Shown here: positions 16,132-40,519 of the stretch, piece by piece
Layout of the letters: every line of letters starts with the position of its first letter
How positions within the stretch are numbered: the stretch's first letter is position 1
Position numbers and translations under genes: made by a program
Assembly: GCA_964637295.1 (NCBI GenBank)
Contig: CAZWWE010000001.1
Coordinates: forward strand, 252,312 to 316,311
DNA length: 64,000 nt
Direction: 5' to 3'
Origin: an uncultured Pseudomonadales bacterium
GTDB lineage: Bacteria; Patescibacteriota; Microgenomatia; UBA1400; PJMF01
Notes under the pieces: generated by a model
Seen by the model: the letters and a program-made list of their open reading frames with translations, nothing else
What the model was told of the DNA's origin: nothing
The model's database searches: none

Positions 16132-16554
16132 CTAGCTGGCTATAGAGTCCATCGCTTGATTGGCTAATAGATCGGCCATTTTGTTTTCTTCGCGAGGAAT
16201 ATGCCTAATTTCATAAGCAAGAACGGGGAGAGTACTTAAAATTTTCCAGTTTTCCAAAGCTAAAGAACGTAGTCGATCTTCTTTAATTTGCCAATTCTTA
16301 TTCATTTGCTCCACCACTAATTTTGAGTCTAATTTAAAAATTAATGTCGTTGCTTGGTGCAGCTGGTTTTTTAGATATTGAAGAGCTAAATTAAGGGCAA
16401 GGTATTCAGCCTCATTGTTGGTTTTTAAGCCCAAATACTTATATTCTCGATATATTTCTTGACCATCAGCATCAATAATGTAGACTCCGGCCCCAGCAAT
16501 TCCAGGATTACCTCGAGATCCGCCATCGGTGAAGATAATCAGTTTTTTTTGCAT
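16132..16554 (-). CDS. rnhA: Ribonuclease HI
   Basis: IFTDGGSRGNPGIAGAGVYI and the downstream E/D catalytic residues of the RNase H fold. Confidence 0.85.
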   Translation of the reverse strand: MQKKLIIFTDGGSRGNPGIAGAGVYIIDADGQEIYREYKYLGLKTNNEAEYLALNLALQYLKNQLHQATTLIFKLDSKLVVEQMNKNWQIKEDRLRSLALENWKILSTLPVLAYEIRHIPREENKMADLLANQAMDSIAS

Positions 16555-16585
16555 ATTTACCGCTTTATTAACGCAACGTCTGGAG

Positions 16586-17044
16586 TTAATCGGCTTTTAA
16601 TTTGATCAATAAGACTCTTTCTTGATCTCTGTCTTCAGATAGACTCTCGAGTCTTTCAAAGTTTTTATTTTCAGTTAGCACACTGTGTACTAAAAATCTT
16701 TCATAAGAATTTAAGCTATGCATTTCTTCAGTTTGACCGGTTTCTAAAACTCGATGAGCAATCTCCAAAGCTTTTTCTTTTAAACGTTTTTCTAAAGAGC
16801 TACGATATTCATTGATATCAAGCATAATTTTTTTATTGAGAAAATCATTTTTAAAGGACAGCTTGGTTAATAACTCAATCGCTTCCAGGGTTTCTCCGCG
16901 ATTGCCAATGAGAAGTGCTGCTTCGCTTTGAGGAACAGTGATGTTTATTTTTAATCGCTCATCACTTTCTTCTAAAACGATTTCAAACTCATCATCTACT
17001 CCAAGATGTTGAATTAATTTTTCTAGATATTCTTGTACTTTCAT
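16586..17044 (-). CDS. khpB: Jag/KhpB-like RNA-binding protein (KH + R3H)
   Basis: C-terminal R3H-like YERFLVHSVLTEN. Sits immediately downstream of yidC as in the conserved rnpA-yidC-jag unit. Confidence 0.7.
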   Translation of the reverse strand: MKVQEYLEKLIQHLGVDDEFEIVLEESDERLKINITVPQSEAALLIGNRGETLEAIELLTKLSFKNDFLNKKIMLDINEYRSSLEKRLKEKALEIAHRVLETGQTEEMHSLNSYERFLVHSVLTENKNFERLESLSEDRDQERVLLIKLKAD

Positions 17045-17047
17045 ACT

Positions 17048-18046
17048 TTATTTTTTCCTTTTATTTTTGCGTTTACGCTTTTTTGCTAAGAGATCTTTTT
17101 TAATTTTAGTAGCCTTGGTATTTTTTGGTTTTAGTGAAACTTCGCTCCCATCTATTTTCTTCAAAACACTAGCCAAATCATCAGCTGGAGCCTGATGACT
17201 AAAAAGCTTGGTATCAAAAATAGATTTTTGCTTTAGATGAATTTTTTTAGGAATAGCAGTTAGCTTTGTTTGTGTCGTAACAGATAAATATTTATTTTTA
17301 AAAGGACCAAATTTAGTTACATATTTATTCCAATAAGTGGCTAGTCCACCCCAACCAGAAACAAAATATTGAGTAATCATTGTAATAAGAGTGCCAGCAA
17401 TCCAATATAAGGCTAGACCAGATGGCAATTTCAAAGCAATTACGGTAGTCATAACTGGCATTAAAAATATCATTTGTTGTTGCATGGTTGCTGCCATTTC
17501 AGCGATGTCTTCTTCTTTTTTATTCGCTTGCTGAATGATTTTTGATTTAGAATCATTGGCGACCACATCTCTGGTTTGAGTTGCAGGAGCAATCATTAAT
17601 GACAATAAAAATTGAGTTAAACCTGCAAAGACTGGTAAAACAAAAAACTGATCAGCTTGACTTAAATTCACCCATAAAAAATTAAGGTTAAAGTTGAGCT
17701 CGGGACTATTAAAAAGTTTAATAATCGCCTGATATAAAACTATTAAAATAAATAGCTGTAATAATTGGGGTAAACAACCAGCAAGAGGGTTAATATTATA
17801 AGTTTTATAAAGCTGAGCTTGGGCGAGGGCCATGGCTTGCTTGTCATTAGCATGCTTTTCTTTAAGTTTTTTAAGCTCTGGTTGTAGCTCTTGGATTTTT
17901 TTACTTGATTTAATACTTGGCAAAGTAAGTGGCAAAAGTAGTAGCCTAATTAAAACCGTGAAAACAATAATGGTTAAACCAAGATTATTAAAAATCGAAT
18001 CTAAAAAAACTAAAATCGAAATAAAAAAACTTATAAAATTACTCAT
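17048..18046 (-). CDS. yidC: Membrane protein insertase YidC/Oxa1 family
   Basis: Five-TM core with conserved LLPLTLPSIKSSKKIQELQPELKKLKEKH and a Lys-rich C-terminal tail. Synteny with yidD/rnpA. Confidence 0.85.
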   Translation of the reverse strand: MSNFISFFISILVFLDSIFNNLGLTIIVFTVLIRLLLLPLTLPSIKSSKKIQELQPELKKLKEKHANDKQAMALAQAQLYKTYNINPLAGCLPQLLQLFILIVLYQAIIKLFNSPELNFNLNFLWVNLSQADQFFVLPVFAGLTQFLLSLMIAPATQTRDVVANDSKSKIIQQANKKEEDIAEMAATMQQQMIFLMPVMTTVIALKLPSGLALYWIAGTLITMITQYFVSGWGGLATYWNKYVTKFGPFKNKYLSVTTQTKLTAIPKKIHLKQKSIFDTKLFSHQAPADDLASVLKKIDGSEVSLKPKNTKATKIKKDLLAKKRKRKNKRKK

Positions 18047-18056
18047 GTTTTAGATC

Positions 18057-18257
18057 CTAAAAATGGCGACAATTTATCACTCGCCATAAACCTTGTAATG
18101 CCCCGACAATTGTACCATTCTTTTTAATTTGGGCGAGAGCATAAGAACTACAACTAGGACTCTGCCTGCAAGATGATGAAAAACCAAAAAAACTAATTAA
18201 CAGCTGATGTTTATATGCCCTCATCGTTAAAAATGTTTTGGTTAAAATTTTATTCAT
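18057..18257 (-). CDS. yidD: Membrane protein insertion efficiency factor YidD
   Basis: SCRQSPSCSSYALAQIKKNGTIVGALQGLWRVINCRHF matches the YidD signature (CRFyPSCSqYA...G...RilrChP). Confidence 0.8.
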   Translation of the reverse strand: MNKILTKTFLTMRAYKHQLLISFFGFSSSCRQSPSCSSYALAQIKKNGTIVGALQGLWRVINCRHF

Positions 18258-18625
18258 GATTTAAATTTAATATTTTTCTGGATTTGTTTTGCCAAGATAA
18301 CAAAGTCTTTTTCTAGAAGCTCTTTATCTAGTGGAAAATTTCTTTTTAAAATGATCACTAGATCATAGGCCATGTTTGGAGAAAAATTACAATTTTGAAA
18401 CTCTTTTTCCACAAGTGAATATAAAAAACGGCGGAACTTATTTCTAAGTGTTGATTTAGATAAAGATGCTTTAGAAGTAAGACAACTTATCTTAAAATCG
18501 CTTTGATTTGATCTTAAATAGGCTAAAAAGTATTGGGAACTTAAAAATAAAGAATTGCCTCTAATAAAAATATTAGCATTCTGTTGTAAAGAAAGATTTA
18601 GGCGGTGTTTTTTAGCTAACATCAA
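18254..18625 (-). CDS. rnpA: Ribonuclease P protein component
   Basis: LAKKHRLNLS...NIFIRGNSLFL...RNKFRR is RnpA-like. Located between rpmH and yidD. Confidence 0.75.
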   Translation of the reverse strand: MMLAKKHRLNLSLQQNANIFIRGNSLFLSSQYFLAYLRSNQSDFKISCLTSKASLSKSTLRNKFRRFLYSLVEKEFQNCNFSPNMAYDLVIILKRNFPLDKELLEKDFVILAKQIQKNIKFKS

Positions 18626-18633
18626 TAATTAGT

Positions 18634-18780
18634 TTACCAGTGTTTGGCTACGGCCAATTTTTTTCTGCCTTTGGCACGACGACGTTTAATAACAACTTGA
18701 CCAGTAAGAGTTTGCATTCTTTTCAAGAAACCATGCATTCTCATGCGCTTTTTTTTCTTTGGATTCCATGTTCTTTTCAT
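18634..18780 (-). CDS. rpmH: 50S ribosomal protein L34
   Basis: Not in the ORF track (<60 aa). Reverse translation gives [48 protein letters not shown]. Confidence 0.9.
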
Positions 18781-18806
18781 AGGTTAGAGATTATATCATA
18801 AAAAAA

Positions 18807-19916
18807 TCAGCTATTTACCCTGAAAGGCATGGCTATATAAAAATAGTCTTCAGTGGTTTTATTTTTAAAGATTGCTGGCTTTAAGCTCTCGTTCATGCCA
18901 AAAATAAGAGTTTCTGGTTTTAAAGCATTTATAAAATCAATCAAATAATTGACATTAAAAGCAATTTCTCCAGTTTGATCAGAATCATTGTTTATTGTAA
19001 TTTCTCCAGAGTATTCTCCCAAGGAAGGAGATTGTGAGCTAATCAACATTCTATTTTTTTCAATCGCTAATTTTACTACGTTGGAAACATCTCTGGAAAA
19101 AATAGCAGCACGTTTAAGCTGAGTTAAAAACTCCAAACCATCAAATTCAATATTTAAAATAAAGCTTGGCGGAATAATTTTTTCATACGGTGGATAATCG
19201 CCTTCGATTAATCTCACATACATCTCTATTTGATTGAGTTTAAACAAAAGCTGCTTTAATTCAGAGGCTACAAGAATTTCAATTTTTTGCACCTCTGCTT
19301 GTTTGGCAATTCGATAAAGCTCATTCAAGGCTTTGGCTGGAATTAAAATCGTTTTATCTTGTTCAGAGCTAATTGTTCTAAGAAACAAACTACTTAAACG
19401 AAAACCATCAGTAGCAACCACTTCTAGGCCAAGTTTACTAAACTTGAACATTAAAGCTGTTAACACTGGTCTGCTTTGATCAACGCTCGCACAAAAAGCT
19501 ACAGCGGTTTGAATTTTTTCTAAATCATCTAAACCTAAATAAAAACTGTCTCCCTCGACAACTGGAAAGCTGGGAAATTCTTCGCTATTTTGACAAGCTA
19601 AGCGACTATTGGTTCTTCCTTGCTTGATAATTAAAAAATTATCTTTTAACTCAAAGCTAATTTTGCCATTTTCTAAAGAGTTGATGATATTTTTTAATAA
19701 TTCACCATTAACAATTAATTCTCCGGTATTTTCTGTTTCAACTATTAATTCAGTTTTAATACCCAAATAAAGATCTGTGGCTGACAGTATTAGTTTTTGA
19801 TCCTTAAGTTGCAAAAGAATGGATGATAATACTGAAATTTGCGGTTTTGTTGGAATTACCTTTTGTAAGTAATTGAGTGAGTTTTTTAAATTTTCTTGTA
19901 AAACATTGAATTTCAT
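18807..19916 (-). CDS. dnaN: DNA polymerase III beta sliding clamp
   Basis: MKFNVLQENLKNSLNYLQKVIPTKPQISVLSSILLQ plus three-domain length. Directly downstream of dnaA. Confidence 0.85.
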   Translation of the reverse strand: MKFNVLQENLKNSLNYLQKVIPTKPQISVLSSILLQLKDQKLILSATDLYLGIKTELIVETENTGELIVNGELLKNIINSLENGKISFELKDNFLIIKQGRTNSRLACQNSEEFPSFPVVEGDSFYLGLDDLEKIQTAVAFCASVDQSRPVLTALMFKFSKLGLEVVATDGFRLSSLFLRTISSEQDKTILIPAKALNELYRIAKQAEVQKIEILVASELKQLLFKLNQIEMYVRLIEGDYPPYEKIIPPSFILNIEFDGLEFLTQLKRAAIFSRDVSNVVKLAIEKNRMLISSQSPSLGEYSGEITINNDSDQTGEIAFNVNYLIDFINALKPETLIFGMNESLKPAIFKNKTTEDYFYIAMPFRVNS

Positions 19917-20224
19917 ATTTTCTTTTTCTTAATTATATATATTTAGTAGTTGTAGTAGTAGGGTTTGTTAATAAGTGAATATTTAAAACGATTAGATCGA
20001 AAAAATGCCTCATATTAAATGGTTTATAAGACCCAATTTTTTGTTAATATTTTTGTTAATACCTGTGGTTTTATGTTGACAGAATCTTTTAATTATTCAC
20101 AGTCCTATAATTTTTAGAGCAAATTGTTAACAAGCTTTCAACTATTTTTCCACTGTTTTTTCCACAATTGTTAATAAACTTGATTTAGATAATTACTTTG
20201 ACTGATAAATGACTGATTTATCAG
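19917..20224. promoter_or_regulatory. Candidate oriC (dnaA-dnaN intergenic region with DnaA-box-like 9-mers and AT-rich repeats)
   Basis: AATTATATATATTTAG AT-rich tract. Repeated TTGTTAATA (x4). TTTTCCACA / TTTTCCACT / TGTGGTTTT box-like elements. An 11-bp inverted repeat GACTGATAAAT-gactg-ATTTATCAGTC overlaps the dnaA stop. Confidence 0.5.
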
Positions 20225-21793
20225 TCAATTTGATATAGCAATTAGAGACATTTTGATTGCTGAAACATCTTGTTGCACTATCTGATCAGTAATCAAATCT
20301 TGTTCGATTTTTTTAATCGCGTGAATTACGCTACTATGATCTCTTCCGGAAAACCACTGGCCAATTTCCTCGAGAGGAATTTGTAATTCATTTCTTAATA
20401 AATACATGGCGACGTGCCTGGCTTTGACTAATTCTTTGCTGCGTCTTTTGCCTCTAACTGCGCTTTGTTTAATACGATAGTGATTAGCGACGGTTTTGAT
20501 AATGTCTTGAGGTTTGGCCTTAATTATTTTTTGTTGATTTTGTTTAACTTCGCTCTGCAGAATTTTATCGATTAAGTTGATATCAACAGCAAGATTTTGC
20601 AATTCCACCGCTGAGCGAATTTTTTTAATAATACCCTCAATTCTTCTAGCGCTATCTACTTGGGAAGCAATTTTTTGTGCTAAATTTATTGGAACATCAA
20701 GCTTATTAGCTTGGGCTTTTAATAACAGAATTGCAGTTCTTAACTCAAAAGTTGGTTGTTGAATATCAATCATTAAACCTGCTTCAAAACGAGAACGCAG
20801 ACGATCTTCAAGTAAGCTAATTTCTTGGGGTGGGCGATCAGAAGTCATGATAATTTGTGAATTGATGGCAATTAAGGCGTTAAAAGTGTGAAAGAACTCT
20901 TCTTGAACGGAATTTTTTCCAGCAATAAATTGAATATCGTCTAATAAAAGTAAGTTGGTTTTGCGATATTTATTTTTTAATTGCAGAGTATTATGACTTT
21001 TGATAGCTCTAACAATTTCATTAGTAAATTGTTCTCCAGAGGCATAAATAATTTCTGCATCAGGATTATTCTGCAAAAGATGGTGCGCTACAGCGTGAAT
21101 TAAATGGGTTTTGCCAACACCTACTCCGCCATATAAAAAAAGCGGGTTATAGCTAGTACCAGGATTATTGGCAACTGCTGTAGCAGCGGCATGGGCCATT
21201 TCATTGCTTGAAGAAACCGCAAAACTTTCAAAAGTGTAGTCTTGTCTAAGACCGATTTGTGAAGCACGAACCTTGAGCCGATCAAAAGTATTATTATTAA
21301 TATTAGCTTGAGAAAAAAGTTCTTCAACAGTAGGGGATTGAACGTTTTGCTGTTCAGTCAAAAAACCTTTATTGATTAACAAATTATTTTTTGATTGACG
21401 ATAATTTTGTTGAGTTATTTTTTGCGTTTTGGCAACTTGGTCGTTATTTTGTGGGGCCTGTAAATTCTGTGAATTTTGTGGGAAATAATCATTTTTTTTT
21501 GTTTGTCTTAAATCAGTAACAATAAACTCAATTTCCAGCGGCTTGTTGATGTATTTTTCCAGAGCAAGTTTAATTTGAGTATATAAATTTGTTTTCAAGT
21601 TAGTAACGTGAAAAGCCGTCATACAACTAATCGTGGCAACCGCTTTTTGCTCGTTTTCAATTTTTACCGCAGTCAATGGACTTGGAATAATCCAGGTATT
21701 GAAAAAAGCTGGGCTAAGGCTGGCTTCAAGATCTATTTTAGCCATCTGCCAAACCTGCTTAACGGTTTCTGAGTCATAAACCTGTTCTGACAT
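20225..21793 (-). CDS. dnaA: Chromosomal replication initiator protein DnaA
   Basis: GGVGVGKTHL Walker A, LLLDDIQF Walker B and the C-terminal DNA-binding helix. Ends in TGA. Confidence 0.9.
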   Translation of the reverse strand: MSEQVYDSETVKQVWQMAKIDLEASLSPAFFNTWIIPSPLTAVKIENEQKAVATISCMTAFHVTNLKTNLYTQIKLALEKYINKPLEIEFIVTDLRQTKKNDYFPQNSQNLQAPQNNDQVAKTQKITQQNYRQSKNNLLINKGFLTEQQNVQSPTVEELFSQANINNNTFDRLKVRASQIGLRQDYTFESFAVSSSNEMAHAAATAVANNPGTSYNPLFLYGGVGVGKTHLIHAVAHHLLQNNPDAEIIYASGEQFTNEIVRAIKSHNTLQLKNKYRKTNLLLLDDIQFIAGKNSVQEEFFHTFNALIAINSQIIMTSDRPPQEISLLEDRLRSRFEAGLMIDIQQPTFELRTAILLLKAQANKLDVPINLAQKIASQVDSARRIEGIIKKIRSAVELQNLAVDINLIDKILQSEVKQNQQKIIKAKPQDIIKTVANHYRIKQSAVRGKRRSKELVKARHVAMYLLRNELQIPLEEIGQWFSGRDHSSVIHAIKKIEQDLITDQIVQQDVSAIKMSLIAISN

Positions 21794-21888
21794 AAAGATT
21801 TTACCTTCTCAATTATTTGGGGGCAGAGTAAAAACAAAAAATGTTTGCTTACTTATACACAAAGTTTTCCACAATTGGCAAGGGGCAA

Positions 21889-24078
21889 TTATTTTGGTGG
21901 TTGGTAGTCGTTGATGTCGTAAATGCCGTGCTGGTCTGGTTTGAGGGTTTGCTCGTCATTTTCACTAAAGACAGTCTTAATTTGAAAATTATCTTTTTGA
22001 TCACGAGTTGTCAATTCTTGGTCGGCATTAAAAATTAATTGATCAGTTTTAAGCGCTTGTTCTGCTAATTTATTAGCGTTTTTTAGAGGATCAGTAGTAA
22101 GATCGACTTTTGGGTTTTTCCAAGCCAAAACACTGTTATTTAGATTCTCTTTTTCTTGAAAAGCCTGATTGTTGTCAAGTCGCTGTTTTTTTAAAGCTCT
22201 AATTTTTTGATAACTTTCAAAACTTTCACTCCTGGGATTTAGTCCAGAAGCTATGGTCTTTTTTTCATTTTTTTCATCTTCTTTTTTTAAGATTTCCTCA
22301 GGATTGGTGGTAATAACTTGATGTTCTTCTTCTGAAGCAATCACTCTCAATGCTACGTGATTTTGGCCGGCAAAGAAAATGCCTTCTCCTACGTCAGAAG
22401 AAACCAAGAGCTGTCTTTCGCCTTCAGATAAATAAAATGTTTGGGTGAGAATAGGGATAGAGGCGGTTGATTGTTTCATTAAAAATTGAATTGAGGCGTT
22501 AGAGACAATGGCCTTACCATAATCATTGCGTAAAAAATCTTCCACATCTTGAGTGATAGTGGTAATGCCCAGATAGTATTTGCGGGCTCTTTTGACCATG
22601 GAGTAAACAAAGGCAGCACTATCAGGATGCATCATAAAATACCACGCTTCATCAATGACCAAGATGCGTCTTTTGAGATTTTTTTTGACTCTAGTCCAAA
22701 TAAAGTCAAGAATAACGTACATAGCGATTGGTCGCAGCGACTCTTCCATTTCTTTGACAGAAAAAACTGTAAATTGCGAACTGATATCAACGTTAGAAGC
22801 TTGATTAAAAATACCACGAAAAGAACCGGTGATAAATTTTTCCAATCTTGCAGCCAAATCATCACTTTCTTCTCTTTCCATGCCGATCAGTGCTTTATAA
22901 AGATCTTCCATTAAGGGAGGAGTGTTTTTTTGTGTGGCTGGATCAGGAGTAATGCCTTTGGCTTTGTAGGCGGCAATGATGGCGCGATCAAGAATAGCTT
23001 CTTGTTGAGGGGTCATTTCTCCCAGCATTACTTTAAGCAAACCGTGAATGGAAAGAATTTTTTGTCCCAATTCGTTTTCACCTTCCTCGTAAACATTGGA
23101 TAGATCAAAAGGATTAATTTTTGCCTTTGAACCAAAAGTGAAATTGATATATTCACCACCGACCATTTTACATAGTTCTTCATATTCATGCTCTGGATCG
23201 AGAACAATAACTTCGGCGTCAAACATTAATTGTCTTAAGATTTCCAATTTGACAGTGTAAGATTTACCAGCGCCAGATTTGGCAAAAATCACCATGTTGG
23301 CATTTTCCATTTTGAAACGATCGAAAATGACTAATGAATCATTGTGTTCATTAATGCCATAAACAATACCAGTTTCCATGGTCAGCTCGGAAGAAGTAAA
23401 GGGAAAAGTCGTTGCCAGTGAGGTGGTGTCCATGTTTCTAGTGACTGAAAGGCGATCAACTCCCATTGGCAAAGTGGTTTTGAAGCCTTCGTCCATTTGT
23501 AGAGCAGATTTTTTGGAAACAATCATTAGCGCTCCTAGGGTACCCTGAATGCTTTTGGTGATTTTATCCAGCATTTCTTTGCTCTCAGCCCTCACAGTAA
23601 TGTAAAGTCCAAATTGAAAAAATCTTTCTGAGCCAGCAGCTAGTTGCTCTCTCATGGCGCGAGCATCACTTAGTTTAATTTCTGTGTTAATATTGCTAAT
23701 TTTTCCAGATCTAATGTCTGAAGTAATTTCTGCCTCCATTTCGGTAATTTTTCTCTTAAGATTATCAAGAATATCTCCCGTATCTGAAGGAAAAATAAAC
23801 ATAGATATATTGGCTTGATTAGGATAGTTAATTAAAGGAGAGAGCCAATTGGCTGGTACCGCCCTTGGGTAGCCAGCAATAAACAGAGTACGAGTATAAG
23901 TGGAGTTAATTTTTTGATAAGTAAAATCAACCTCAATTGCTTCTGGAGCAATGATGTCTTGAATGGTGACTAAACCACGAGAAAATTCGCTTAATTTTTC
24001 TTGCGTGTACTGTTCCGCGTTAATTTTATTCTGATCAGCTGTAACCGGAGTTTTTTTCTTAGAAAATAAATTTAGCAT
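21889..24078 (-). CDS. virB4: Type IV secretion ATPase VirB4/TrbE/CagE family (monoderm-type)
   Basis: Walker A VIFAKSGAGKSYTVK and Walker B ILVIDEAWYF. Start placed at MLNLFSKKK (ATG 24078), 1 nt after the upstream gene's stop. The track ORF starts at 24228 and overlaps the neighbour. Confidence 0.8.
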   Translation of the reverse strand: MLNLFSKKKTPVTADQNKINAEQYTQEKLSEFSRGLVTIQDIIAPEAIEVDFTYQKINSTYTRTLFIAGYPRAVPANWLSPLINYPNQANISMFIFPSDTGDILDNLKRKITEMEAEITSDIRSGKISNINTEIKLSDARAMREQLAAGSERFFQFGLYITVRAESKEMLDKITKSIQGTLGALMIVSKKSALQMDEGFKTTLPMGVDRLSVTRNMDTTSLATTFPFTSSELTMETGIVYGINEHNDSLVIFDRFKMENANMVIFAKSGAGKSYTVKLEILRQLMFDAEVIVLDPEHEYEELCKMVGGEYINFTFGSKAKINPFDLSNVYEEGENELGQKILSIHGLLKVMLGEMTPQQEAILDRAIIAAYKAKGITPDPATQKNTPPLMEDLYKALIGMEREESDDLAARLEKFITGSFRGIFNQASNVDISSQFTVFSVKEMEESLRPIAMYVILDFIWTRVKKNLKRRILVIDEAWYFMMHPDSAAFVYSMVKRARKYYLGITTITQDVEDFLRNDYGKAIVSNASIQFLMKQSTASIPILTQTFYLSEGERQLLVSSDVGEGIFFAGQNHVALRVIASEEEHQVITTNPEEILKKEDEKNEKKTIASGLNPRSESFESYQKIRALKKQRLDNNQAFQEKENLNNSVLAWKNPKVDLTTDPLKNANKLAEQALKTDQLIFNADQELTTRDQKDNFQIKTVFSENDEQTLKPDQHGIYDINDYQPPK

Positions 24079-24079
24079 A

Positions 24080-25243
24080 TTAAGTCGATGTTTGATTTGG
24101 TTGGGTTGACAATGGTTTTTGTAATGGTTGTATTTCTTCGCTGAAGTCGTCAGTTTCAGACATAGTTGTTGTAGCAGTTGCGGTAAACTCGCTTGAATTG
24201 TTGCTGTTGAGGCTTGGTGTACCTCCAAAAACTGGCACTTCGTTGGTGAACGAAGTTGTTACTTGAGGAATAACTGGGGTCTCTGGAGCAACTGGATTTA
24301 CTGGGTTTGCTGGATCCGCTAGAGGAACTGAATCCCTCGAAGTAAGCGGAGCCGTTTGTATTGTTGGTATTTCTTGGGCAACTGGTTGTTCTTGAGTTGC
24401 TGGTGCTTCTCGGGTGACTGGTTTTTCTTGAGCTACCGGCATTTCTTGAGCGACCGGTATTTCTTGAACAATTGGTCCTTCTTGAGTCACACTGTCGATT
24501 GAAGGATTAATGACTGATTGCTGTAAAGGTGTTGTTGTAATATTTGAACTCATAATTTTTTCTCCAAAGCTCGCCCTGACCAAGGGTGTGGTGTAATTCT
24601 CGTTATTGCTAATTTCTTGTCCCTCAGCTGCTTCGGGATTGTAATTAATATAAAAATTTTGAATAATTTCCTGAGTGTTTAGTTGTTTAGTGTAGAGTCC
24701 AAGTCGATTGAACTGAGAAATGAGATGATCGCGACGTGGCTCCAATAAATTTGCCGCTTTTTCCAAAATAATGCTTTTTTCAATACTATTGATGTCGAAA
24801 GTAGTTTTGCCAGGCAGAACATTGGTGGCGGTAATGAGACCCATTTCTCCTGGACTAGCTGGCACAGTGACGTAAAAATGTTTTTCCAAAACATTTCTTT
24901 CTTTAATCAAAGTGGCCACAAAATCTCGATACTGTTTAATTAGTTTAGCTTTGCGATCCGAGTTGGCTTTTTGCATTTGTTCATCAAGTAGTCTTAAGTA
25001 TTTAGTGACGTCTTTGGTTTGCGATTGAATGTTGATTTGAATAGGATAATTAAGAGAGTTTAATAAAGAACCATAGGTAAAAATGATAGCGTCTTGTTCT
25101 TGTTCGGCCAGCAAACTGAAATTCATCGTGCCCACCTGCAAAATAATTGAAGCAGTGCCGTCTTTCAAAAGAACAATATCGTTAATAATGTCATAGACAT
25201 CAAGAAATTCTTGAGTGGTGGAACTAATTACTTTATCGCTCAT
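24080..25243 (-). CDS. T4SS-associated hypothetical protein with Pro/Gln-rich heptad repeats
   Basis: Translationally coupled to virB4. C-terminal repeats PIVQEIPVAQEMPVAQEKPVTREAPATQEQPVAQEIP are encoded by 21-nt tandem repeats. Confidence 0.4.
   Translation of the reverse strand: MSDKVISSTTQEFLDVYDIINDIVLLKDGTASIILQVGTMNFSLLAEQEQDAIIFTYGSLLNSLNYPIQINIQSQTKDVTKYLRLLDEQMQKANSDRKAKLIKQYRDFVATLIKERNVLEKHFYVTVPASPGEMGLITATNVLPGKTTFDINSIEKSIILEKAANLLEPRRDHLISQFNRLGLYTKQLNTQEIIQNFYINYNPEAAEGQEISNNENYTTPLVRASFGEKIMSSNITTTPLQQSVINPSIDSVTQEGPIVQEIPVAQEMPVAQEKPVTREAPATQEQPVAQEIPTIQTAPLTSRDSVPLADPANPVNPVAPETPVIPQVTTSFTNEVPVFGGTPSLNSNNSSEFTATATTTMSETDDFSEEIQPLQKPLSTQPNQTST
24380..24500 (-). repeat. 21-nt tandem repeats encoding (P-V-A-Q-E-x-P)n
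   Basis: Plus-strand period-21 units: ...ttcttgagctaccggcatttcttgagcgaccggtatttcttgaacaattggtccttcttgagtcac. Confidence 0.6.
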
Positions 25244-25267
25244 GAGCTGTCAATAGTTTACTAAATT

Positions 25268-26122
25268 TTAAGCCTTGATTACAAGGGGCTCAGCAATTTG
25301 GCCAGTAAGCTGAATTTCAACTGGAGTAAAATTCAGTTGATCCTTTTCTACAACAATTTGATAAAGCCCATCAGCTAGAGGACGATCGGTTAAAAATTGT
25401 CCATTCAGATCACTTTTCAAAACGCGCAGAGTTTGTTGATTTTGATCTTTAATTTCAATAATTGCTTGAGCAATTTTTTGATTGTTTTGATCGAGAATAA
25501 GTCCGGCGATTTGATTGGGCAGTAATGGTTTTATAGTACTGTTTTCATCAGGGAGTTTAAGCTTGCGAACTCTAGTTTGTAGATTGGGCTTTTCTTGTTT
25601 AATTGGCTCAGCTTTAATCTGTTCTGTTTTGACCTCGACTTCAGCGAATTGATTGAGCACTGAGCTAATTTTTTCTTTTTCACTCAACTCAAATTGATCG
25701 AGGCTATTTTCTTCGGGAATACTTTTTAAATATTCAAAAATGCGCTGTTTACGCGCAGGATTTAAATTGATATCTGGTGCAAAAAAATCGTCTTGCGTAG
25801 AGCTAATTTTATAATTAAAAAAATCTGGAATTTTATTAGATTTTTTCCAAAAAAATTTAGTTGGTTTATAGATGTTTTTGAAAAAAGTTTTGATCCAATG
25901 ATCGAGAGGTCTTTCTTCAATCGGTACAAAAGCAATGGCCGCTCCCAAGCCAACGACAGAAAAAACTAACGGCCACTTGATGATCCCAATTAGATTGGTT
26001 TTATAGATAATAAAAGCTAAAACTGCGGCGATAGCTAGTTCAGCAAATTGCTTGAGAGTCATGCTTCCCACAAGATGAAACTTATAGTTGGTAATATCTT
26101 GTGGAATTGGATGCTGTTTCAT
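25268..26122 (-). CDS. VirB3/PrgI-like two-TM membrane protein with C-terminal beta-sandwich-like domain
   Basis: N-terminal two TMs (LAIAAVLAFIIY..., WPLVFSVVGLGAAIAFV) immediately upstream of the VirB4 unit. C-terminus GLYQIVVEKDQLNFTPVEIQL is carboxypeptidase-regulatory-like. Confidence 0.35.
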   Translation of the reverse strand: MKQHPIPQDITNYKFHLVGSMTLKQFAELAIAAVLAFIIYKTNLIGIIKWPLVFSVVGLGAAIAFVPIEERPLDHWIKTFFKNIYKPTKFFWKKSNKIPDFFNYKISSTQDDFFAPDINLNPARKQRIFEYLKSIPEENSLDQFELSEKEKISSVLNQFAEVEVKTEQIKAEPIKQEKPNLQTRVRKLKLPDENSTIKPLLPNQIAGLILDQNNQKIAQAIIEIKDQNQQTLRVLKSDLNGQFLTDRPLADGLYQIVVEKDQLNFTPVEIQLTGQIAEPLVIKA

Positions 26123-26208
26123 GAGTTATCTCATTTTAGCAGAAATATAGGTTGATTGTTTAGACTGAGCTTGACTGTTTAAAACTGAAGGTTGCCTCAA
26201 ATCAAATG

Positions 26209-27192
26209 TTATTTTTGGGCAGCGCTGGCCACTGCTGGAGTGATAATTTTGGCCTCGATATTAATTCCGGCCGAATTAGTTAGTTTGGCGCTAAATTTGT
26301 AAAAAGGATAGGCAATTTTTAATTCACTGTCATAGCGATATTCGATTTCGACCGCATACAAATCGGCTTCGATAATCCAATTAAGATCGATGACGTTGGC
26401 AATTTTGCTTTGAGCATCAATAATAGAGCCAACGCCATTTTTGATATTTTTAACAGCTTGGTCAAGCGAAAGAGAAGAAATTTCTCTTGCTGGCTCAAAG
26501 ACTTGATAGCTATCTTTAAATACAATTTTTCTAACTTCATAATTATGGTCGATTTTGCAAAAAAATGGATAATTATTTTCATTTTCGTAAAAAACTGAGA
26601 AGCCGTTTAACTCGTAAGTGAAAGGAATTTGTAAATAAACAGCGTCTTTTGGATCAGTTTCTCTTTGTTCTAATGTGCCACCAAGATACAAAATGCTATT
26701 TTTTTGAGCTATTAAAGATAGATCGAGATTGTATTTTTTATAAAAATTGGCGCATTGAGAGATTGCTTCTTCAATAACAATGGGAACAAAAGCACTTTCA
26801 TTTTTTGAGCCAATGTCAAAACTCCATCTGTTTTCAAAAACATTTTTAATTAAAAAGTTTTCGTCTTTAATCCAATAATTTCCCATTTTTTCATCTTTTT
26901 CCAATTGATATTCTCTAATGATTTTGTTGGCCAACTCATCTTCTAAATTTAAAGTGGCTTTGGCTTGAAAAATTGTAAAAAATTCTGGCACAAAAATTTT
27001 TTGGCCAGAAAAATCAATTTTTTTGTAAGTAGTCTGAGTCTGATTGTAATTATTGTTAACGAAATTATTTTGAACGATGGTTTCTTTTTGGGGAGTGATT
27101 AAAATCAATATCGCAGAAATCAATAATGAAACCGAAGCAAAAATAATTAATAGCGGAATGATTTTGATTTCTTTTTTGTTTTTTTTATTCAT
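26209..27192 (-). CDS. Bitopic membrane protein (possible VirB8-like T4SS component)
   Basis: Single N-terminal TM IKIIPLLIIFASVSLLISAILILI followed by a ~290-aa ectodomain. Overlaps the upstream giant gene by 8 nt. Confidence 0.3.
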   Translation of the reverse strand: MNKKNKKEIKIIPLLIIFASVSLLISAILILITPQKETIVQNNFVNNNYNQTQTTYKKIDFSGQKIFVPEFFTIFQAKATLNLEDELANKIIREYQLEKDEKMGNYWIKDENFLIKNVFENRWSFDIGSKNESAFVPIVIEEAISQCANFYKKYNLDLSLIAQKNSILYLGGTLEQRETDPKDAVYLQIPFTYELNGFSVFYENENNYPFFCKIDHNYEVRKIVFKDSYQVFEPAREISSLSLDQAVKNIKNGVGSIIDAQSKIANVIDLNWIIEADLYAVEIEYRYDSELKIAYPFYKFSAKLTNSAGINIEAKIITPAVASAAQK

Positions 27193-30100
27193 AGCAGGTG
27201 GTTACTCCATCATTTAAAAGTGGTGGATAATTGCCTTTATTGGTTTCTGGTACTAAAGTTTCAATAATGGAAAAATTTCTTGGACTAGGATGATAAAAAA
27301 CACCGTTAAAATCTACTTCATAATGCAGATGAGGTCCGGTTGAATTACCCCGATTGCCCATGGGGCCAATCAAAAAGCCTTCTTCAGTGTTCATGCAGGA
27401 TTCTGCCTGTGACAGCTGATCATTTGGCGCCTCAAAATGAGCAAATAATAATTTGCGACTAGTGCCGCTGTCGTCAAACGTCAAAACATAATAACAACCA
27501 TAGCCGCTGTCGCTACAACCCTTAAAGCAAAGTTCACCAGCGTAGGGCACATAAACATTGGGAAATTTGCCGCCGCCGCCGATATCATATGCATCAGCAT
27601 AGCCTTTAGAAAGAGGAGATCGATGAGAAGCATCTGCGTCTGGAGTTCCGACGCCAAAAGGTAATTGAGAAATGCCTCCGGTCGTTGGCCAACAACCGGC
27701 ACCAGCACTGCAGTTGCCAAGACAGACTCTGGCGGCGGTTTTGAGATTGTCTTGACCAGAGATAAAATTATTTTGGTAATAAAAGTTAAGCTCGATGGTG
27801 TTAATGATGGCAGTGTGATTGTAATCTGAGCTTAGGTCGTCGAGGGTATAAGAAAAAGTCAAGTTTTCTCCGGCTGGAATAATAATAAAGTCTGTTTCTG
27901 CGGGACTGGGATTTGCCAGGGGATCATTGACGTTGGCTGGCACATAGCTTGGTTCTTGTGGTATTGAAGAACCAGGATCGTTGAGTGGCTTTTGATCGAG
28001 GGCTTGATTGGCTTTGATAATTTTTTTGAAGTAAGCAAAATCTAGATTTTTTTGTGTTGGTATGGCGGGTATGGGTTTGCCACTTTCTTCCCAACCTTTT
28101 TTGCTTTGTTTAAATTTGATTTGATCTGTAATGTTGTTTATTTGTAGCGAAAAATCTTCTTTGGGCTTAACGGTGACGGTGTATTCGATGGAGAGTGGAA
28201 AACCGGGATTTTCACATTTAGTGCCATTGTTTTCAGGATTGGTACAGCCCTTGACAATTTTGGCAGTTTTTTTCATTTCTGCATATTTGGAAGTTTTTTC
28301 AACAGATTTGTTAATTTCAGATTCATTGAAAGGAAAATCAGTTAAAAAAGCTGAATTGAGACTAGTTTGATAAATCAAAACCAAGGTGGCCGTGGTGCCA
28401 AAAGTAATTAGCACGGCGCGACCAGCAGTTTGCATGGCGGTAGAATAATGTTGGCTGAGCAAGCTTTTGGCGCCATGTGGCAGTTGGGATTCAATTTGTT
28501 GTTGAGCAGAGACGTTGCTGTGTAAAATTCCGCCACTGGCTCCTCCGGCTCCACCTAGCGATTTACCAGCGGCCCCCAACAATCCTCGACTGCCAAATAG
28601 TCCGTTTCTGAGTAAAAAATAACCAGGAGCTAATAGCAAAAGCCAAGGGAGCAAGGCAGAAAGAGCGGCTAAAATTAGTCCTAAAACTATTAGTGGCCAA
28701 TATTTTTTAATTAGCTCAAGAATTTTTTCCAAGCCCATCTCGATCAGCTGCTCTTTAATTTTTTTGATAATGGGCAGCGCTGTTTCAGCGGCGCGCAAGG
28801 CCTCGCCTAAACCACCGGCCGCATCAAGAGCTAAATAAAGTCCCTCACTCAAGGCTTTGCTGGCTAGTTTTTTACCTTTTTGTCCTAAGGCACTGTCGAG
28901 AAAAGCTGTGCCCTGGTAATTCTCTCCGGGTGCAAAAGCTCTTTGCACGTAGCCACTGTCATCTGCCATAAAAGCATCTGCTCCAAATTGTTCAGCCATC
29001 TGTAGCATGTAAAAGTCCATGGGATTGATTTGCGGCGCAATTTGTTTCTGAAATACTTCTAGGCTGTATTCTTGATATGTGACTCCTGGAGCATAATAAT
29101 CAAAAAAAACTTTGAGCGTGTTTTGCTGTTCTGCTTGAGAAAGTTTAGCAATCTCTGTTTCTAAATATTTTTTGATAAGTTCTTGTTGTTGTTCTTGAAA
29201 AGCTAGGAGCTCTCGATTGTTAGGGTCGGCAAGCTTTGCCAGGCCTTCGGTAATTTGTTTGCCTCCGTAGCTTAAATTGAGTGCACCCAAGCGGCGCAAG
29301 GCTGCTAATTTTTTTGGATCTTTTTTGATGGTTTCGAAAAGTTGTTCTGCTTGTTCTGGAGTATATTTTTCTAGGCCCAGTTCTCGACCAACTATATTGA
29401 TATAGATAGCTCTTTTGCGTTTCCAATAAAAAATGATCAAATTGGCCAATTCTTCGCTGTGAGCATCGAAATCTTGTCGATCTAGGCTGTTGCCAAAAAG
29501 ATTGACAAAGCGGCCATAATCGAAATTTTTGGCATCTGGAATTAGAAATTCTGGCGGCAAGCCCTGTTGAATAAAAACTTCAACGAGCGGGCGAACATTT
29601 TCGATCACCAAGCTCATTCTGGCTCGATCTTGAGAGTTGGTGATGCTAATCAATTTTTCGAGGAAGGCTTTTTCTAAATAATTTTCATCTTGAATGATAT
29701 TGAGCTCAGATTCGATAATTTTGGCGAAATTTGAGTTATCTTGCTGAGTTGTTAATAGTTCTTCAGCTTTTTGACTAGTTAAAACATTTTCCTCAGTAGT
29801 GTCATTTTTGGCTCTGGAGCCAAGCTGGTCTGCTGTGAGTGGCTCTTTTTCGTTGGCACGAATTTGCACTTGACCGCCCTGAGCAATATTTCTGACGGCA
29901 GTGTTGAGTAAATTTAAACCATGAACATCCATTAATAAGTTTAAGGCTGTTTGGTTGCTAAAATTAATTCTTTCTGCTGGCTCACTGATTAATTTATCCA
30001 GCGAAAATTGCCCGCTAAGCAACAGGTTTTCTACTTGTGCAAAAGCTCGATCCATTAATTGCTGTCTTATTGCTAATGGAAGCTGGTCAAAAGTAATCAC

Positions 30101-39658: not shown

Positions 39659-40519
39659 TTATTCTCCAAATCCTGGTATGCGTAAAATTGATACACCAAT
39701 AAATTGTAAGATAGTGACTGAAAAAATGACAAATAAAAGGCCAATAATTGCCGAAGTAATAATTTCTTTTGCCTCTTTGGTTTTATTTGGATCGCCTTGA
39801 GAAACTGATAGCATGAAAGAACCCACCAAAATCATAATTAGAACGATGCCGCCACCGGCTGTCAGGCCAATGGTCACGATGGTTGTAATAACACTTTCTG
39901 GATCACTAGGAATACAACCTACAGCTGTCCAGACGCCGCCATTTTGAAAACAAGCCTGACAAGCTTCGAATTGGCTGGTGCCTTCTTTGATTTGTTGTTT
40001 GCAAAGATCATAATTGGCAACTGCGTCAGTTTTTGTATTACATTGATTTTCCTCATTGCCGCATTGCAAAGCTGCTTGCGGAGAAGCAATGTAAATTTTT
40101 TGATCTGTAGTGGTGAGAGTGGGATATAAAATAACTGTTAGTTTATAAGAGCAATTAGGTTCAATATTTTTTCCTGCAATCACAATATCAACCGCGCCAT
40201 TTTTTACATCAAAAAAAGAATTATACATATCAGTAAATCCATTTTTGCAAGCTAAAGTTGTGCCGTCTAAATAAACTTTAATAGCTTTTCCATCAACAAT
40301 TTTGCCATCCGCATAAGCGATGTCGGTTAATTTCACATGCACATCTGTTCCAGCCTGGACACAGCCACTTAAAAAATTGCAATTTTGTCCATCTCTTTCT
40401 TGATAGACTTCCGTTGTCCCAATTCTGGCAGTCCCAGCCGCCAACACTTCTTTCACGTTGAGTGAAAAAAGTGAGCTAATCAATAAAAACACTAGAGCTA
40501 TTTTTCTCATTTTCGTCAC
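39659..40519 (-). CDS. Cys-rich secreted ectodomain fused to C-terminal VirB2-like pilin hairpin (paralog 8)
   Basis: Signal peptide MTKMRKIALVFLLISSLFSLNVKEVLA. Cysteine-rich ectodomain. C-terminal IVLIMILVGSFMLSVSQGDPNKTKEAKEIITSAIIGLLFVIFSVTILQFI. Confidence 0.55.
   Translation of the reverse strand: MTKMRKIALVFLLISSLFSLNVKEVLAAGTARIGTTEVYQERDGQNCNFLSGCVQAGTDVHVKLTDIAYADGKIVDGKAIKVYLDGTTLACKNGFTDMYNSFFDVKNGAVDIVIAGKNIEPNCSYKLTVILYPTLTTTDQKIYIASPQAALQCGNEENQCNTKTDAVANYDLCKQQIKEGTSQFEACQACFQNGGVWTAVGCIPSDPESVITTIVTIGLTAGGGIVLIMILVGSFMLSVSQGDPNKTKEAKEIITSAIIGLLFVIFSVTILQFIGVSILRIPGFGE

What the first reader, a model, noticed from the sequence alone, without database searches (positions are those of the whole stretch)
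18634..21888. Origin region: co-directional dnaA-dnaN-rpmH-rnpA-yidD-yidC-jag and identical 13-mers flanking dnaA
In most bacteria rpmH-rnpA-yidC-jag is divergent from dnaA-dnaN-recF. Here all lie on the minus strand in one series, and recF is displaced about 15 kb away (2437-3519). The 308-nt dnaA-dnaN spacer is AT-rich with repeated TTGTTAATA. It contains TTTTCCACAATTG. The identical 13-mer TTTTCCACAATTG recurs 70 nt upstream of the dnaA start (about 21863-21875), consistent with DnaA boxes of consensus TTTTCCACA used for both origin and dnaA autoregulation. The window probably spans oriC.
Basis: seen in the sequence. Interest (0 to 1): 0.55.

Follow-up and report, generated by a model that had tools for sequence, protein, structure and literature searches.

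The report
Replication origin of a Pacebacteria chromosome
The stretch between dnaA and dnaN is an ordinary bacterial chromosome replication origin of the well-studied Bacillus type; its only unusual feature is that the small dnaA-origin-dnaN cassette was flipped in an ancestor of this group of ultrasmall (CPR) bacteria.

Summary
The interpretation (oriC plus dnaA autoregulation) is supported.

Directly upstream of dnaN lies a textbook basal unwinding system: two tandem DnaA boxes, a 5-nt GC-rich spacer, six DnaA-trios (five of them 3'-GAT-5'), then an AT-rich tract. This design is conserved in all relatives and matches Firmicutes origins.

The TTGTTAATA repeats are degenerate DnaA boxes (TTATTAACA) read on the other strand. 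At the same positions some relatives carry canonical TTWTNCACA boxes.

The cumulative G-C minimum of the window is at 19764. In 8 genomes of the clade, third-codon GC skew changes sign between dnaA and dnaN (in the window itself the dnaN value is still slightly negative).

The block upstream of dnaA, TGTGGAAAA-N3-TGTGTATAA, is nearly invariant in 16 genomes. It overlaps a promoter-like site, which fits autoregulation.

The co-directional order is a trait of one Pacebacteria/Microgenomates clade (16 of 16 genomes, down to about 50% DnaA identity). One inversion of the roughly 3.2-kb dnaA-oriC-dnaN cassette, centred on the origin, explains it.

This is a new member of a known kind, of low to moderate interest.

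The parts
20225..21793 (-). dnaA (522 aa), the replication initiator
   Evidence: Pfam Bac_DnaA 220 bits and Bac_DnaA_C 90 bits. TIGR00362 at 437 bits. Best solved-structure match is B. subtilis DnaA 8BTG, E = 2.5e-91, with the GRDH(S/T)(S/T)VIHA motif retained.
19917..20224 (-). oriC: the 308-nt dnaA-dnaN spacer, 24% G+C
   Evidence: Highest DnaA-box density in the window. The skew switch falls here. Block-wise conservation in 9 genomes (alignment A1).
19944..19961 (-). DnaA-trio array. The sense strand reads 5'-CTA CTA CTA CAA CTA CTA-3'. The + strand, read 3'->5', reads GAT GAT GAT GTT GAT GAT.
   Evidence: It is the only place in either strand of the window with at least 4 of 6 CTA triplets in register; the 3 hits are overlapping registers of this one array, against 0.1 expected. 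It is essentially invariant in the close relatives (one of the nine differs slightly) and present in more distant CPR and in Firmicutes.
19966..19974 (-). Trio-proximal DnaA box TTATTAACA, 2 mismatches to TTATCCACA. The GC-rich spacer AACC(C) follows at 19962-19965.
   Evidence: The orthologous position in relatives reads TTATACACA, TTATTCACA, TTACGCACA or TTTTACACA. It meets the BUS search rule of PMC8287927.
19974..19982 (-). Upstream member of the tandem pair, ATATTCACT, which carries the CAC core in this genome
   Evidence: Alignment A1. In most relatives this site is ATATTAAC and the proximal site carries CAC. The window, L172 and L167 have the reverse arrangement.
19917..19943 (-). AT-rich tract (24 of 27 bases A/T), the likely DNA unwinding element; it ends at the dnaN ATG (19916)
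   Evidence: Read directly from the sequence. The ATATAATTAA core is conserved in most of the nine close relatives. Firmicutes origins have the same placement.
20042..20083 (-). Run of four sense-strand degenerate boxes at about a 12-nt period: TCTGTCAACA, AAACCACAG, GTATTAACA, ATATTAACA
Evidence: Coordinates. The AACAAAA cores are conserved in A1.
20093..20101 (+). DnaA box TTATTCACA
   Evidence: It lies within the TTATAGGAcTGTGaAtAA block conserved in relatives.
20125..20133 (-). Degenerate box TTGTTAACA, which contains the GTTAAC palindrome
   Evidence: Conserved in 7 of the 9 close genomes; L164 has TTGTTCACA and L172 has diverged.
20146..20177 (.). Distal box cluster: sense TTATTAACA (20169-20177) head-to-head with TTTTCCACA (20158-20166, + strand) and TTTTCCACT (20146-20154, + strand). 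The last two are 12 nt apart. The first copy of the 13-mer lies here.
   Evidence: The sense box is TTTTCCACA or TTTTTCACA in L172 and L163.
21853..21881 (-). dnaA control block: a -35-like TTGCCA (21876-21881), DnaA box TGTGGAAAA (21865-21873) and DnaA box TGTGTATAA (21853-21861), which contains a -10-like TATAAG. The second copy of the 13-mer lies here.
   Evidence: It is the only conserved block of the dnaA upstream region. GTGTATAA is invariant in 16 of 16 genomes and TGTGG nearly so (alignment A2).
18807..19916 (-). dnaN (369 aa)
   Evidence: Three beta-clamp Pfam domains.
16132..18780 (-). rpmH-rnpA-yidD-yidC-jag(khpB)-rnhA, co-directional with dnaA-dnaN
   Evidence: Pfam and NCBIfam hits. 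The same order and strand hold in 16 genomes of the clade.
21889..30925 (-). Type IV secretion-like cluster (M23-peptidase protein, PrgI-like, TraC/TrsD-like, VirB4) ending 95 nt upstream of dnaA. It is encoded on the inferred lagging strand.
   Evidence: Pfam hits. Third-codon GC skew on the sense strand is negative in 8 of 8 genomes. The closeness of T4SS genes to dnaA in CPR is described in bioRxiv 10.1101/2025.01.22.634366.
2437..3519 (-). recF, detached from dnaN
   Evidence: TIGR00611 at 240 bits. It hits the gene next to dnaN in Firmicutes and Saccharibacteria loci.

Best explanation
The dnaA-dnaN spacer (19917-20224) is the chromosomal replication origin of a Patescibacteria (Pacebacteria/Microgenomates) genome. 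It is built like the Bacillus subtilis incC origin.

**Proposed mechanism (inferred by analogy).**
1. DnaA binds a distal group of boxes at 20093-20177 and a run of weaker, same-strand boxes at 20042-20083.
2. DnaA also binds a tandem box pair at 19966-19982. This pair sits 4-5 bp from six DnaA-trios at 19944-19961.
3. ATP-DnaA bound at the pair extends as a filament onto the trio strand, which is the + strand of the window. The filament stretches that strand and opens the adjacent AT-rich tract (19917-19943) at the very start of dnaN.
4. Forks then leave in both directions. The leftward fork runs with dnaN-rpmH-rnpA-yidD-yidC-jag-rnhA. The rightward fork runs head-on through dnaA and the T4SS cluster.

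**Upstream of dnaA.** The second copy of the 13-mer belongs to a separate element. It is a pair of DnaA boxes 12 nt apart that overlap a promoter-like site just upstream of dnaA. DnaA most likely represses its own transcription there.

**Gene order.** The co-directional order arose when the roughly 3.2-kb dnaA-oriC-dnaN cassette inverted in the ancestor of this clade. The inversion is centred on the origin, so every gene keeps its leading or lagging status. That would explain why the change was tolerated and then fixed.

**What is shown and what is inferred.**
- Shown: the sequence elements, their conservation, the skew switch and the clade distribution.
- Inferred: binding, unwinding, repression and the single-inversion path.
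For: **Element anatomy.**
- Element positions and their uniqueness in the window.
- The element passes the published BUS search rule. That rule asks for a box with at most 2 mismatches within 0-16 bp of at least 3 trios, plus a second box with at most 4 mismatches (PMC8287927).

**Conservation.**
- The trio array and the tandem pair are conserved in 9 close relatives (A1).
- They are also present in L165-L168 and L002-L004, in other CPR phyla (L006, L033, L057, L028, L081) and in Bacillales and Clostridia loci.

**Skew.**
- The cumulative G-C minimum is at 19764, and the best change-point is 19.5-21 kb with the residual halved.
- In 8 genomes, all genes from the T4SS cluster to DUF4012 are on one strand. 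Third-codon GC skew is negative up to and including dnaA (8 of 8) and positive on average from dnaN onward. In the window itself the dnaN value is -0.10.

**Box enrichment.** Binomial P = 4.5e-6. In relatives, exact-consensus boxes within several kb are almost confined to the two intergenic regions flanking dnaA.

**DnaA protein.** It is a standard DnaA with an intact domain IV motif.

**Upstream block.** It is nearly invariant in 16 genomes, while the rest of that intergenic region is not conserved.

**Gene order.**
- The rpmH orientation is co-directional in 16 of 16 clade genomes and divergent in 82 of 82 other loci where rpmH is visible.
- Outgroups L081, L086 and L109 show rpmH-operon(-) | dnaA(+) dnaN(+) | T4SS(-). 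This differs from the window layout by one cassette inversion.
Against: - No whole-replicon skew or read-depth profile could be obtained. The skew minimum is therefore only local to 64 kb and to 13-kb loci of relatives.
- In the window itself the skew of dnaN and the small genes next to it is noisy (dnaN third-codon skew on the sense strand is -0.10). The switch cannot be placed more finely than between dnaN and dnaA from this genome alone.
- To the right of the inferred origin, about 63% of coding length in the window is head-on (from the ORF map). This is unusual for origin-proximal DNA in many bacteria.
- The trio-proximal box in this genome is weak (TTATTAACA), and the fourth trio (CAA) departs from the NAN rule.
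- The promoter upstream of dnaA is not called by the consensus scan, because the -10-like hexamer ends in G or C. The 18-19 nt spacing is also suboptimal.
- Outgroup T4SS clusters carry two extra genes between virB4 and dnaN. More than one rearrangement therefore occurred near the cassette.
Confidence: 0.85

Rival explanations
1. The spacer boxes only regulate transcription (of dnaN or of an operon). The true origin lies elsewhere: either in the 95-nt region upstream of dnaA or outside the window.
For: The upstream region also has two good DnaA boxes. Only 64 kb of the replicon could be examined. Many bacteria have DnaA boxes at regulated promoters.
Against: The upstream region is 95 nt long. 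It has no trios and no AT-rich tract, and it is filled by one promoter-like block. The spacer has the only trio array in the window, set in the canonical box-GC-trio-AT arrangement. The skew sign switch falls between dnaA and dnaN in 8 genomes.
Confidence: 0.07
2. The repeated TTGTTAATA / TTATTAACA motif is the binding site of a second, lineage-specific protein (a regulator or nucleoid protein) and is not a DnaA box. Alternatively, it reflects a changed DnaA specificity (C to A at box position 6).
For: There are five copies of (T/A)T(A/G)TTAACA on one strand in 308 nt, far above chance. All lack the CAC core. Two are spaced exactly 12 nt apart.
Against: At the same aligned positions, relatives alternate between TTATTAACA, TTATCAACA, TTTTCCACA, TTTTTCACA and TTATACACA. 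These sites are therefore orthologous to ordinary boxes. TTATCAACA also fills the same BUS position in a Bacillales genome (L024) and in L081. Canonical CAC-core boxes are kept in the same spacer and at the dnaA promoter. The DnaA domain IV motif is unchanged apart from T to S.
Confidence: 0.1
3. The co-directional gene order is an assembly or binning artefact, and the repeated 13-mer is a chance duplicate.
For: The source is a metagenome-type sequence. Two of the nearest public records (L001 and L004) are mislabelled as Pseudomonadales.
Against: The same order is found in 16 genome loci from many samples and assemblers (ENA, NCBI, Logan, JGI). Their DnaA identity ranges from 87% down to 50%. 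The 9-nt cores of both 13-mers are conserved DnaA boxes. Only the 4 flanking bases look coincidental.
Confidence: 0.01

Closest known systems
Bacillus subtilis oriC unwinding region incC, the basal unwinding system (BUS: DnaA-boxes 6/7 plus DnaA-trios)
   Same: - Location between dnaA and dnaN.
- Tandem boxes on the dnaA-sense strand, a short GC-rich spacer, repeated 3'-GAT-5' trios, then an AT-rich tract just before dnaN.
- Additional distal boxes further upstream.
- Bacillales and Clostridia loci fetched here read [TTATCCACA][TATCCACA]-AGCCC-TAC TAC TAT TAC TAC, then an AT-rich run. The window reads [ATATTCAC][TTATTAACA]-AACCC-TAC TAC TAC AAC TAC TAA, then an AT-rich run.
- The best structural match of the DnaA is the B. 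subtilis protein.
   Different: - The boxes are more degenerate; only one of the tandem pair carries the CAC core.
- There is no large box cluster upstream of dnaA (no incA/incB equivalent), only two promoter boxes, so the origin looks monopartite.
- The AT-rich tract is only 27 nt long and abuts the dnaN start codon.
- Function is untested.
Canonical origin-region synteny rpmH-rnpA-yidC-jag <- | -> dnaA-dnaN-recF-gyrB
   Same: The same genes are all clustered within 6 kb of the origin.
   Different: The dnaA-oriC-dnaN cassette is inverted, so all genes share one strand. recF is about 15 kb away. Sixteen of 16 clade genomes have this layout, against 82 of 82 other loci with the divergent layout.
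DnaA autoregulation of the dnaA promoter (E. coli dnaA P1/P2 box; B. subtilis dnaA-dnaN operon auto-repression, cited in PMC6669920)
   Same: DnaA boxes overlap the promoter-like -35/-10 region directly upstream of dnaA, and they are strongly conserved.
   Different: There are just two boxes 12 nt apart, one of which contains the -10-like TATAA. The promoter assignment rests on sequence only.
Origin-proximal type IV secretion cluster of Patescibacteria (bioRxiv 10.1101/2025.01.22.634366)
   Same: VirB4, TrsD/TraC-like and PrgI-like genes lie next to dnaA, dnaN, rnpA and rpmH, as that paper reports for Paceibacterota and Microgenomates.
   Different: From the text read, that paper discusses gene dosage and does not appear to address strand. 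Here the cluster lies on the inferred lagging strand (head-on), both in this clade and, by layout, in the outgroups.

Membership tests
DnaA-dependent bacterial chromosomal origin (oriC) | Cluster of DnaA boxes above background | tested here: met
   Six of 67 boxes (at most 1 mismatch) fall in 403 nt, P = 4.5e-6. The spacer has the highest density in the window. Shuffling the spacer itself gives P = 0.003.
DnaA-dependent bacterial chromosomal origin (oriC) | AT-rich unwinding element next to the boxes | tested here: met
   19917-19943 is 24 of 27 A/T, directly after the trios. This is a sequence criterion only.
DnaA-dependent bacterial chromosomal origin (oriC) | Strand-composition (GC-skew) switch of origin polarity at the site | tested here: met
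   Window minimum at 19764 and change-point at 19.5-21 kb. The sign switch falls between dnaA and dnaN in 8 genomes. The test is local only; the whole replicon was not available.
DnaA-dependent bacterial chromosomal origin (oriC) | Initiation demonstrated (marker frequency, autonomous replication, in vitro unwinding) | not testable with these tools
   No read-depth data and no experiments were available.
Basal unwinding system (BUS; Richardson 2016, Pelliciari 2021) | At least three DnaA-trios (3'-NAN-5', preferably 3'-GAT-5') | tested here: met
   Six triplets, five of them GAT; the fourth is GTT (19944-19961). The array is unique in the window. Rule taken from PMC8287927.
Basal unwinding system (BUS; Richardson 2016, Pelliciari 2021) | DnaA box with at most 2 mismatches within 0-16 bp of the first trio, plus an optional second box with at most 4 mismatches | tested here: met
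   TTATTAACA has 2 mismatches and lies 4-5 bp away. ATATTCACT has 3 mismatches and lies 12-13 bp away.
Basal unwinding system (BUS; Richardson 2016, Pelliciari 2021) | Conservation of the box-spacer-trio arrangement in related genomes | tested here: met
   Nine close relatives (A1), seven more distant clade members, other CPR phyla and Firmicutes.
Basal unwinding system (BUS; Richardson 2016, Pelliciari 2021) | ATP-, box- and trio-dependent strand separation by the cognate DnaA | not testable with these tools
   This needs the strand-separation assay described in PMC8287927.
DnaA-autoregulated dnaA promoter | DnaA boxes overlapping the core promoter of dnaA | tested here: inconclusive
   The boxes are present and nearly invariant in 16 genomes. 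A -35-like TTGCCA and a -10-like TATAAG lie 18 nt apart. The consensus scan does not call this promoter, and no transcription start is known.
Canonical divergent rpmH / dnaA origin synteny | The rpmH operon is transcribed away from dnaA on the opposite strand | tested here: not met
   rpmH is on the same strand and downstream of dnaN, in the window and in 16 clade genomes.

The most novel reading that the evidence does not exclude
In the tandem DnaA-box pair that anchors the filament next to the trios, the CAC-core (presumably high-affinity) box has switched between the two positions several times within this clade.
- It is trio-proximal (5 bp from the trios) in eight genomes.
- It is in the upstream position (13 bp away) in the window, L172, L167, L166, L002 and L004.
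- It is in both positions in L168.
- It is in neither position in no genome where the pair can be read.

If this is compensatory turnover, the unwinding system can be nucleated from either register. The many TTATTAACA-type sites would then be deliberately weak, ATP-DnaA-dependent boxes. The inverted cassette would further show that dnaA-oriC-dnaN behaves as a self-contained module indifferent to orientation.
Probability: 0.3. Interest if true: 0.4.

Novelty: new member of a known kind. Interest (0 to 1): 0.27.

Why it matters
- **Origin annotation.** It gives a well-supported origin for a Pacebacteria/Microgenomates lineage. Two literature searches here found no paper describing an origin for CPR bacteria.
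- **Reach of the BUS.** It extends the Bacillus-type basal unwinding system, almost base for base, to several CPR groups.
- **Gene order.** It documents a clade-wide inversion of the dnaA-oriC-dnaN cassette centred on the origin. This is a clean natural example that inversions symmetric about the origin are tolerated even at the 3-kb scale.
- **T4SS orientation.** The origin-proximal T4SS cluster of these bacteria is encoded head-on to replication. This qualifies the gene-dosage argument made for it in the literature.
- **Overall.** None of this changes how origins are thought to work.

Tried and rejected
- **Metagenome scan.** The scan of metagenome contigs with DnaA gave no full-length relative closer than 40% identity; a 1.4-kb fragment, L085, reached 54% over part of DnaA. 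Close relatives came instead from the protein database and contig look-ups.
- **Changed DnaA specificity (TTATNAACA).** Rejected. Orthologous sites alternate with canonical boxes. The same variant occurs in Firmicutes BUS elements. Domain IV is conserved.
- **Third near-copy of the 13-mer inside rnpA** (18405-18417, 1 mismatch). It is not conserved in any relative, so I treat it as chance.
- **Box-like site inside dnaA** (about +880-916). It is present in most relatives, but it encodes the EFFHTFN motif, so protein constraint explains it.
- **Two-step rearrangement model based on L005** (virB4 next to rnhA). Replaced by a single cassette inversion once L081, L086 and L109 showed the T4SS cluster convergent on dnaN.
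- **Promoter and terminator consensus scan**. It did not call the dnaA promoter and found only an inverted repeat at the dnaA stop.
- **RNA searches.** Rfam on the whole window and on two long intergenic gaps, plus ARAGORN, found nothing.
- **Literature.** Searches found no description of oriC architecture in CPR. They found only the T4SS proximity paper.

Full report
**1. What is in the sequence**

The ORF map and profile searches confirm one uninterrupted series on the - strand:

| Gene | Coordinates | Note |
|---|---|---|
| VirB4-like ATPase | 21889-24228 | |
| dnaA | 20225-21793 | |
| dnaN | 18807-19916 | |
| rpmH | 18634-18780 | |
| rnpA | 18254-18625 | weak on its own: TIGR00188 23 bits, below cutoff |
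| yidD | 18057-18257 | |
| yidC | 17048-18046 | |
| jag/khpB | 16586-17044 | |
| rnhA | 16132-16554 | |
| DUF4012 protein (977 aa) | 13143-16076 | |

- Orthologues of the weak rnpA candidate carry PF00825 hits, which supports the assignment.
- recF is genuine (TIGR00611, 240 bits) and sits at 2437-3519.
- The dnaA-dnaN spacer is 308 nt with 24% G+C.
- TTTTCCACAATTG occurs exactly twice, at 20158 and 21865.
- TTGTTAATA occurs 8 times in the window against 1.6 expected, four of them in the spacer.

**2. Where the window comes from**

- The nearest DnaA relatives are metagenome-assembled genomes labelled Candidatus Pacebacteria, Paceibacterota or Patescibacteria.
- Two of the nearest records (L001 and L004) are mislabelled Pseudomonadales.
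- The protein database holds a graded series of relatives from 100% to about 50% identity.
- I fetched twelve further genomic loci, representing eleven DnaA relatives.

**3.

Read on the dnaA-sense strand, the last 66 nt of the spacer are ATATTCAC-TTATTAACA-AACCC-TAC TAC TAC AAC TAC TAA-ATATATATAATTAAGAAAAAGAAAAT-ATG(dnaN).

- In the CTA register this gives six triplets, five of which are the complement of the DnaA-trio consensus 3'-GAT-5'.
- It is the only such array on either strand of the 64 kb (0.1 expected).
- The published search rule for the basal unwinding system is met (PMC8287927). That rule requires a DnaA box with at most 2 mismatches within 0-16 bp of at least three trios, plus a second box with at most 4 mismatches.
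- The array is essentially invariant in nine close genomes (alignment A1).
- It is present in more distant clade members and in other CPR groups: Amesbacteria, Magasanikbacteria, a Saccharibacteria locus (L057) and an unclassified Patescibacteria locus (L028). One Saccharibacteria locus (L027) shows no clear array.
- Bacillales and Clostridia loci fetched in the same scan read [TTATCCACA][TATCCACA]-AGCCC-TAC TAC TAT TAC TAC, followed by an AT-rich run just before dnaN. This is the same design.

**4. What the TTGTTAATA repeats are**

- On the sense strand they read TATTAACAA. They are the cores of five sites of the form (T/A)T(A/G)TTAACA.
- In the alignment of nine genomes, the same columns hold TTATTAACA, TTATCAACA, TTTTCAACA, TTTTTCACA or TTTTCCACA at the distal site.
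- At the trio-proximal site the columns hold TTATTAACA, TTATCAACA, TTATACACA, TTATTCACA, TTACGCACA, TTTTACACA or TTATGCACC.
- They are therefore orthologues of ordinary DnaA boxes with A in place of C at position 6. Such sites are probably low-affinity.
- DnaA itself is standard. Its best match is the B. subtilis protein in the BUS complex (8BTG), and the domain IV motif GRDH(S/T)(S/T)VIHA is retained.

**5. Composition evidence**

- The running G-minus-C count of the window reaches its minimum at 19764.
- I fitted third-codon GC skew per gene with gene strand as a covariate and scanned for a change-point. The best position is 19.5-21 kb, and the residual sum of squares falls from 1370 to 650.
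- A cleaner test uses eight clade genomes in which all genes from the T4SS cluster to DUF4012 lie on one strand, which cancels the gene-strand effect.
- In those genomes, sense-strand third-codon skew is negative for the T4SS genes and dnaA. For dnaA it is negative in 8 of 8, with mean -0.22.
- It is positive on average from dnaN onward. In the window itself the dnaN value is -0.10.
- The polarity is that of an origin: the leading strand is G-rich.
- It follows that dnaA and the roughly 9-kb T4SS cluster are encoded on the lagging strand.

**6. The region upstream of dnaA**

- Only 95 nt separate the VirB4 stop from the dnaA start.
- In an alignment of 16 genomes, the single conserved block is TTGCCyCTTGCcAAnTGTGGAAAACnnTGTGTATAAs. 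GTGTATAA is invariant in it (alignment A2).
- The block holds two DnaA boxes 12 nt apart. They overlap a -35-like TTGCCA and a -10-like TATAAG.
- This is what an autoregulated dnaA promoter looks like.
- The promoter assignment rests on sequence only, and the simple consensus scan does not call it.
- The four bases that extend the shared 9-mer to a 13-mer belong to the -35-like element at this site. At the spacer site they belong to the neighbouring box.

**7. The gene order**

- Among 172 fetched loci, rpmH is co-directional and downstream of dnaN in 16. All 16 belong to the window's clade, with DnaA identity of 50-87%.
- rpmH is divergent and upstream of dnaA in all 82 other loci where it is visible.
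- Three outgroup loci (L081, L086, L109; 39-42% DnaA identity) show rpmH-operon(-) | dnaA(+) dnaN(+) | two genes | virB4(-).
- Inverting only the dnaA-oriC-dnaN cassette turns that layout into the window's layout.
- The origin lies inside the cassette, so the inversion leaves dnaA head-on and dnaN co-directional, and it leaves the flanks untouched. It is a miniature case of the well-known inversions symmetric about the origin.
- The two extra genes in the outgroups encode a cell-wall hydrolase and a small protein. Their presence shows that further rearrangement occurred within the T4SS cluster.
- Closeness of T4SS genes to dnaA, dnaN, rnpA and rpmH in these phyla has been reported before (bioRxiv 10.1101/2025.01.22.634366). 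In the text read, that paper discussed gene dosage, not strand orientation.

**8. A small point of possible interest**

In the tandem pair next to the trios, the CAC core sits as follows:

| Position of CAC core | Genomes |
|---|---|
| Trio-proximal box only | L169, L001, L161, L170, L171, L163, L164, L165 |
| Upstream box only | window, L172, L167, L166, L002, L004 |
| Both boxes | L168 |
| Neither box | none where the pair can be read |

The pair could not be read in L003. This pattern suggests turnover of the anchoring box between two registers. It agrees with the report that one box of the B. subtilis pair is enough for strand separation (PMC8287927). It is an observation from 16 sequences, not a test.

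**9. Verdict**

- The object is a standard DnaA-box/DnaA-trio origin plus a DnaA-controlled dnaA promoter.
- The only departure from the textbook is an ancient, clade-wide inversion of the origin cassette.
- Not done: whole-replicon skew, coverage-based origin mapping and any biochemistry.

Noticed in passing
window 21889-30925 (- strand); L161-L168: The origin-proximal type IV secretion-like cluster (M23-peptidase protein, PrgI-like, TraC/TrsD-like, VirB4) lies on the inferred lagging strand, head-on to the rightward fork. This holds in all 8 clade genomes tested. By layout it also holds in outgroups L081, L086 and L109.
   Followed up: partly
window 20000-64000: To the right of the inferred origin, about 63% of coding length is on the - strand. 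That is head-on to replication, even though GC skew marks the + strand as leading. Gene-strand bias therefore seems weak or reversed on this flank.
   Followed up: no
window 20198-20228: An inverted repeat with a 13-bp stem overlaps the dnaA stop codon. It is terminator-like only when read on the + strand, antisense to dnaA. Relatives have a shorter palindrome, TTGATnnATCAA, at the same place. Its role is unknown.
   Followed up: partly
window 19966-19982 and the same site in L001-L004, L161-L172: In the tandem box pair next to the DnaA-trios, the CAC core alternates between the upstream and the proximal box across genomes. It is never absent from both, which suggests compensatory turnover.
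   Followed up: partly
window 18405-18417: A third near-copy of the 13-mer (TTTTCCACAAGTG) lies inside the rnpA coding sequence. No relative conserves it, so it is probably chance.
   Followed up: yes
window 18254-18625: The RNase P protein candidate is very divergent: no Pfam hit, and TIGR00188 gives only 23 bits. The assignment rests mainly on synteny and on orthologues with weak PF00825 hits.
   Followed up: partly
window 21889-24228 and 24080-25243: The VirB4 ORF (779 aa, TTG start) overlaps the upstream TraC/TrsD-like ORF by 149 nt. VirB4 in relatives is 657-742 aa (730-742 aa in the closest), so the listed start is probably too far upstream.
   Followed up: no
window 1-64000: ARAGORN finds no tRNA gene and Rfam finds no family at gathering score in the 64 kb. 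Two long gaps free of ORFs of at least 70 aa (39745-40579 and 52487-53223) also have no Rfam match at E up to 0.1.
   Followed up: partly
L001 (CAZEEV010000002.1), L004 (CAZYNM010000002.1): The public records of the closest relatives are titled 'uncultured Pseudomonadales bacterium'. Their gene content and DnaA similarity place them in Patescibacteria (Pacebacteria), so they look taxonomically mislabelled.
   Followed up: no
window 13143-16076 (- strand): A protein of about 1000 aa with DUF4012 follows rnhA in every clade genome examined. It is a conserved member of the origin-proximal gene series and its function is unknown.
   Followed up: no
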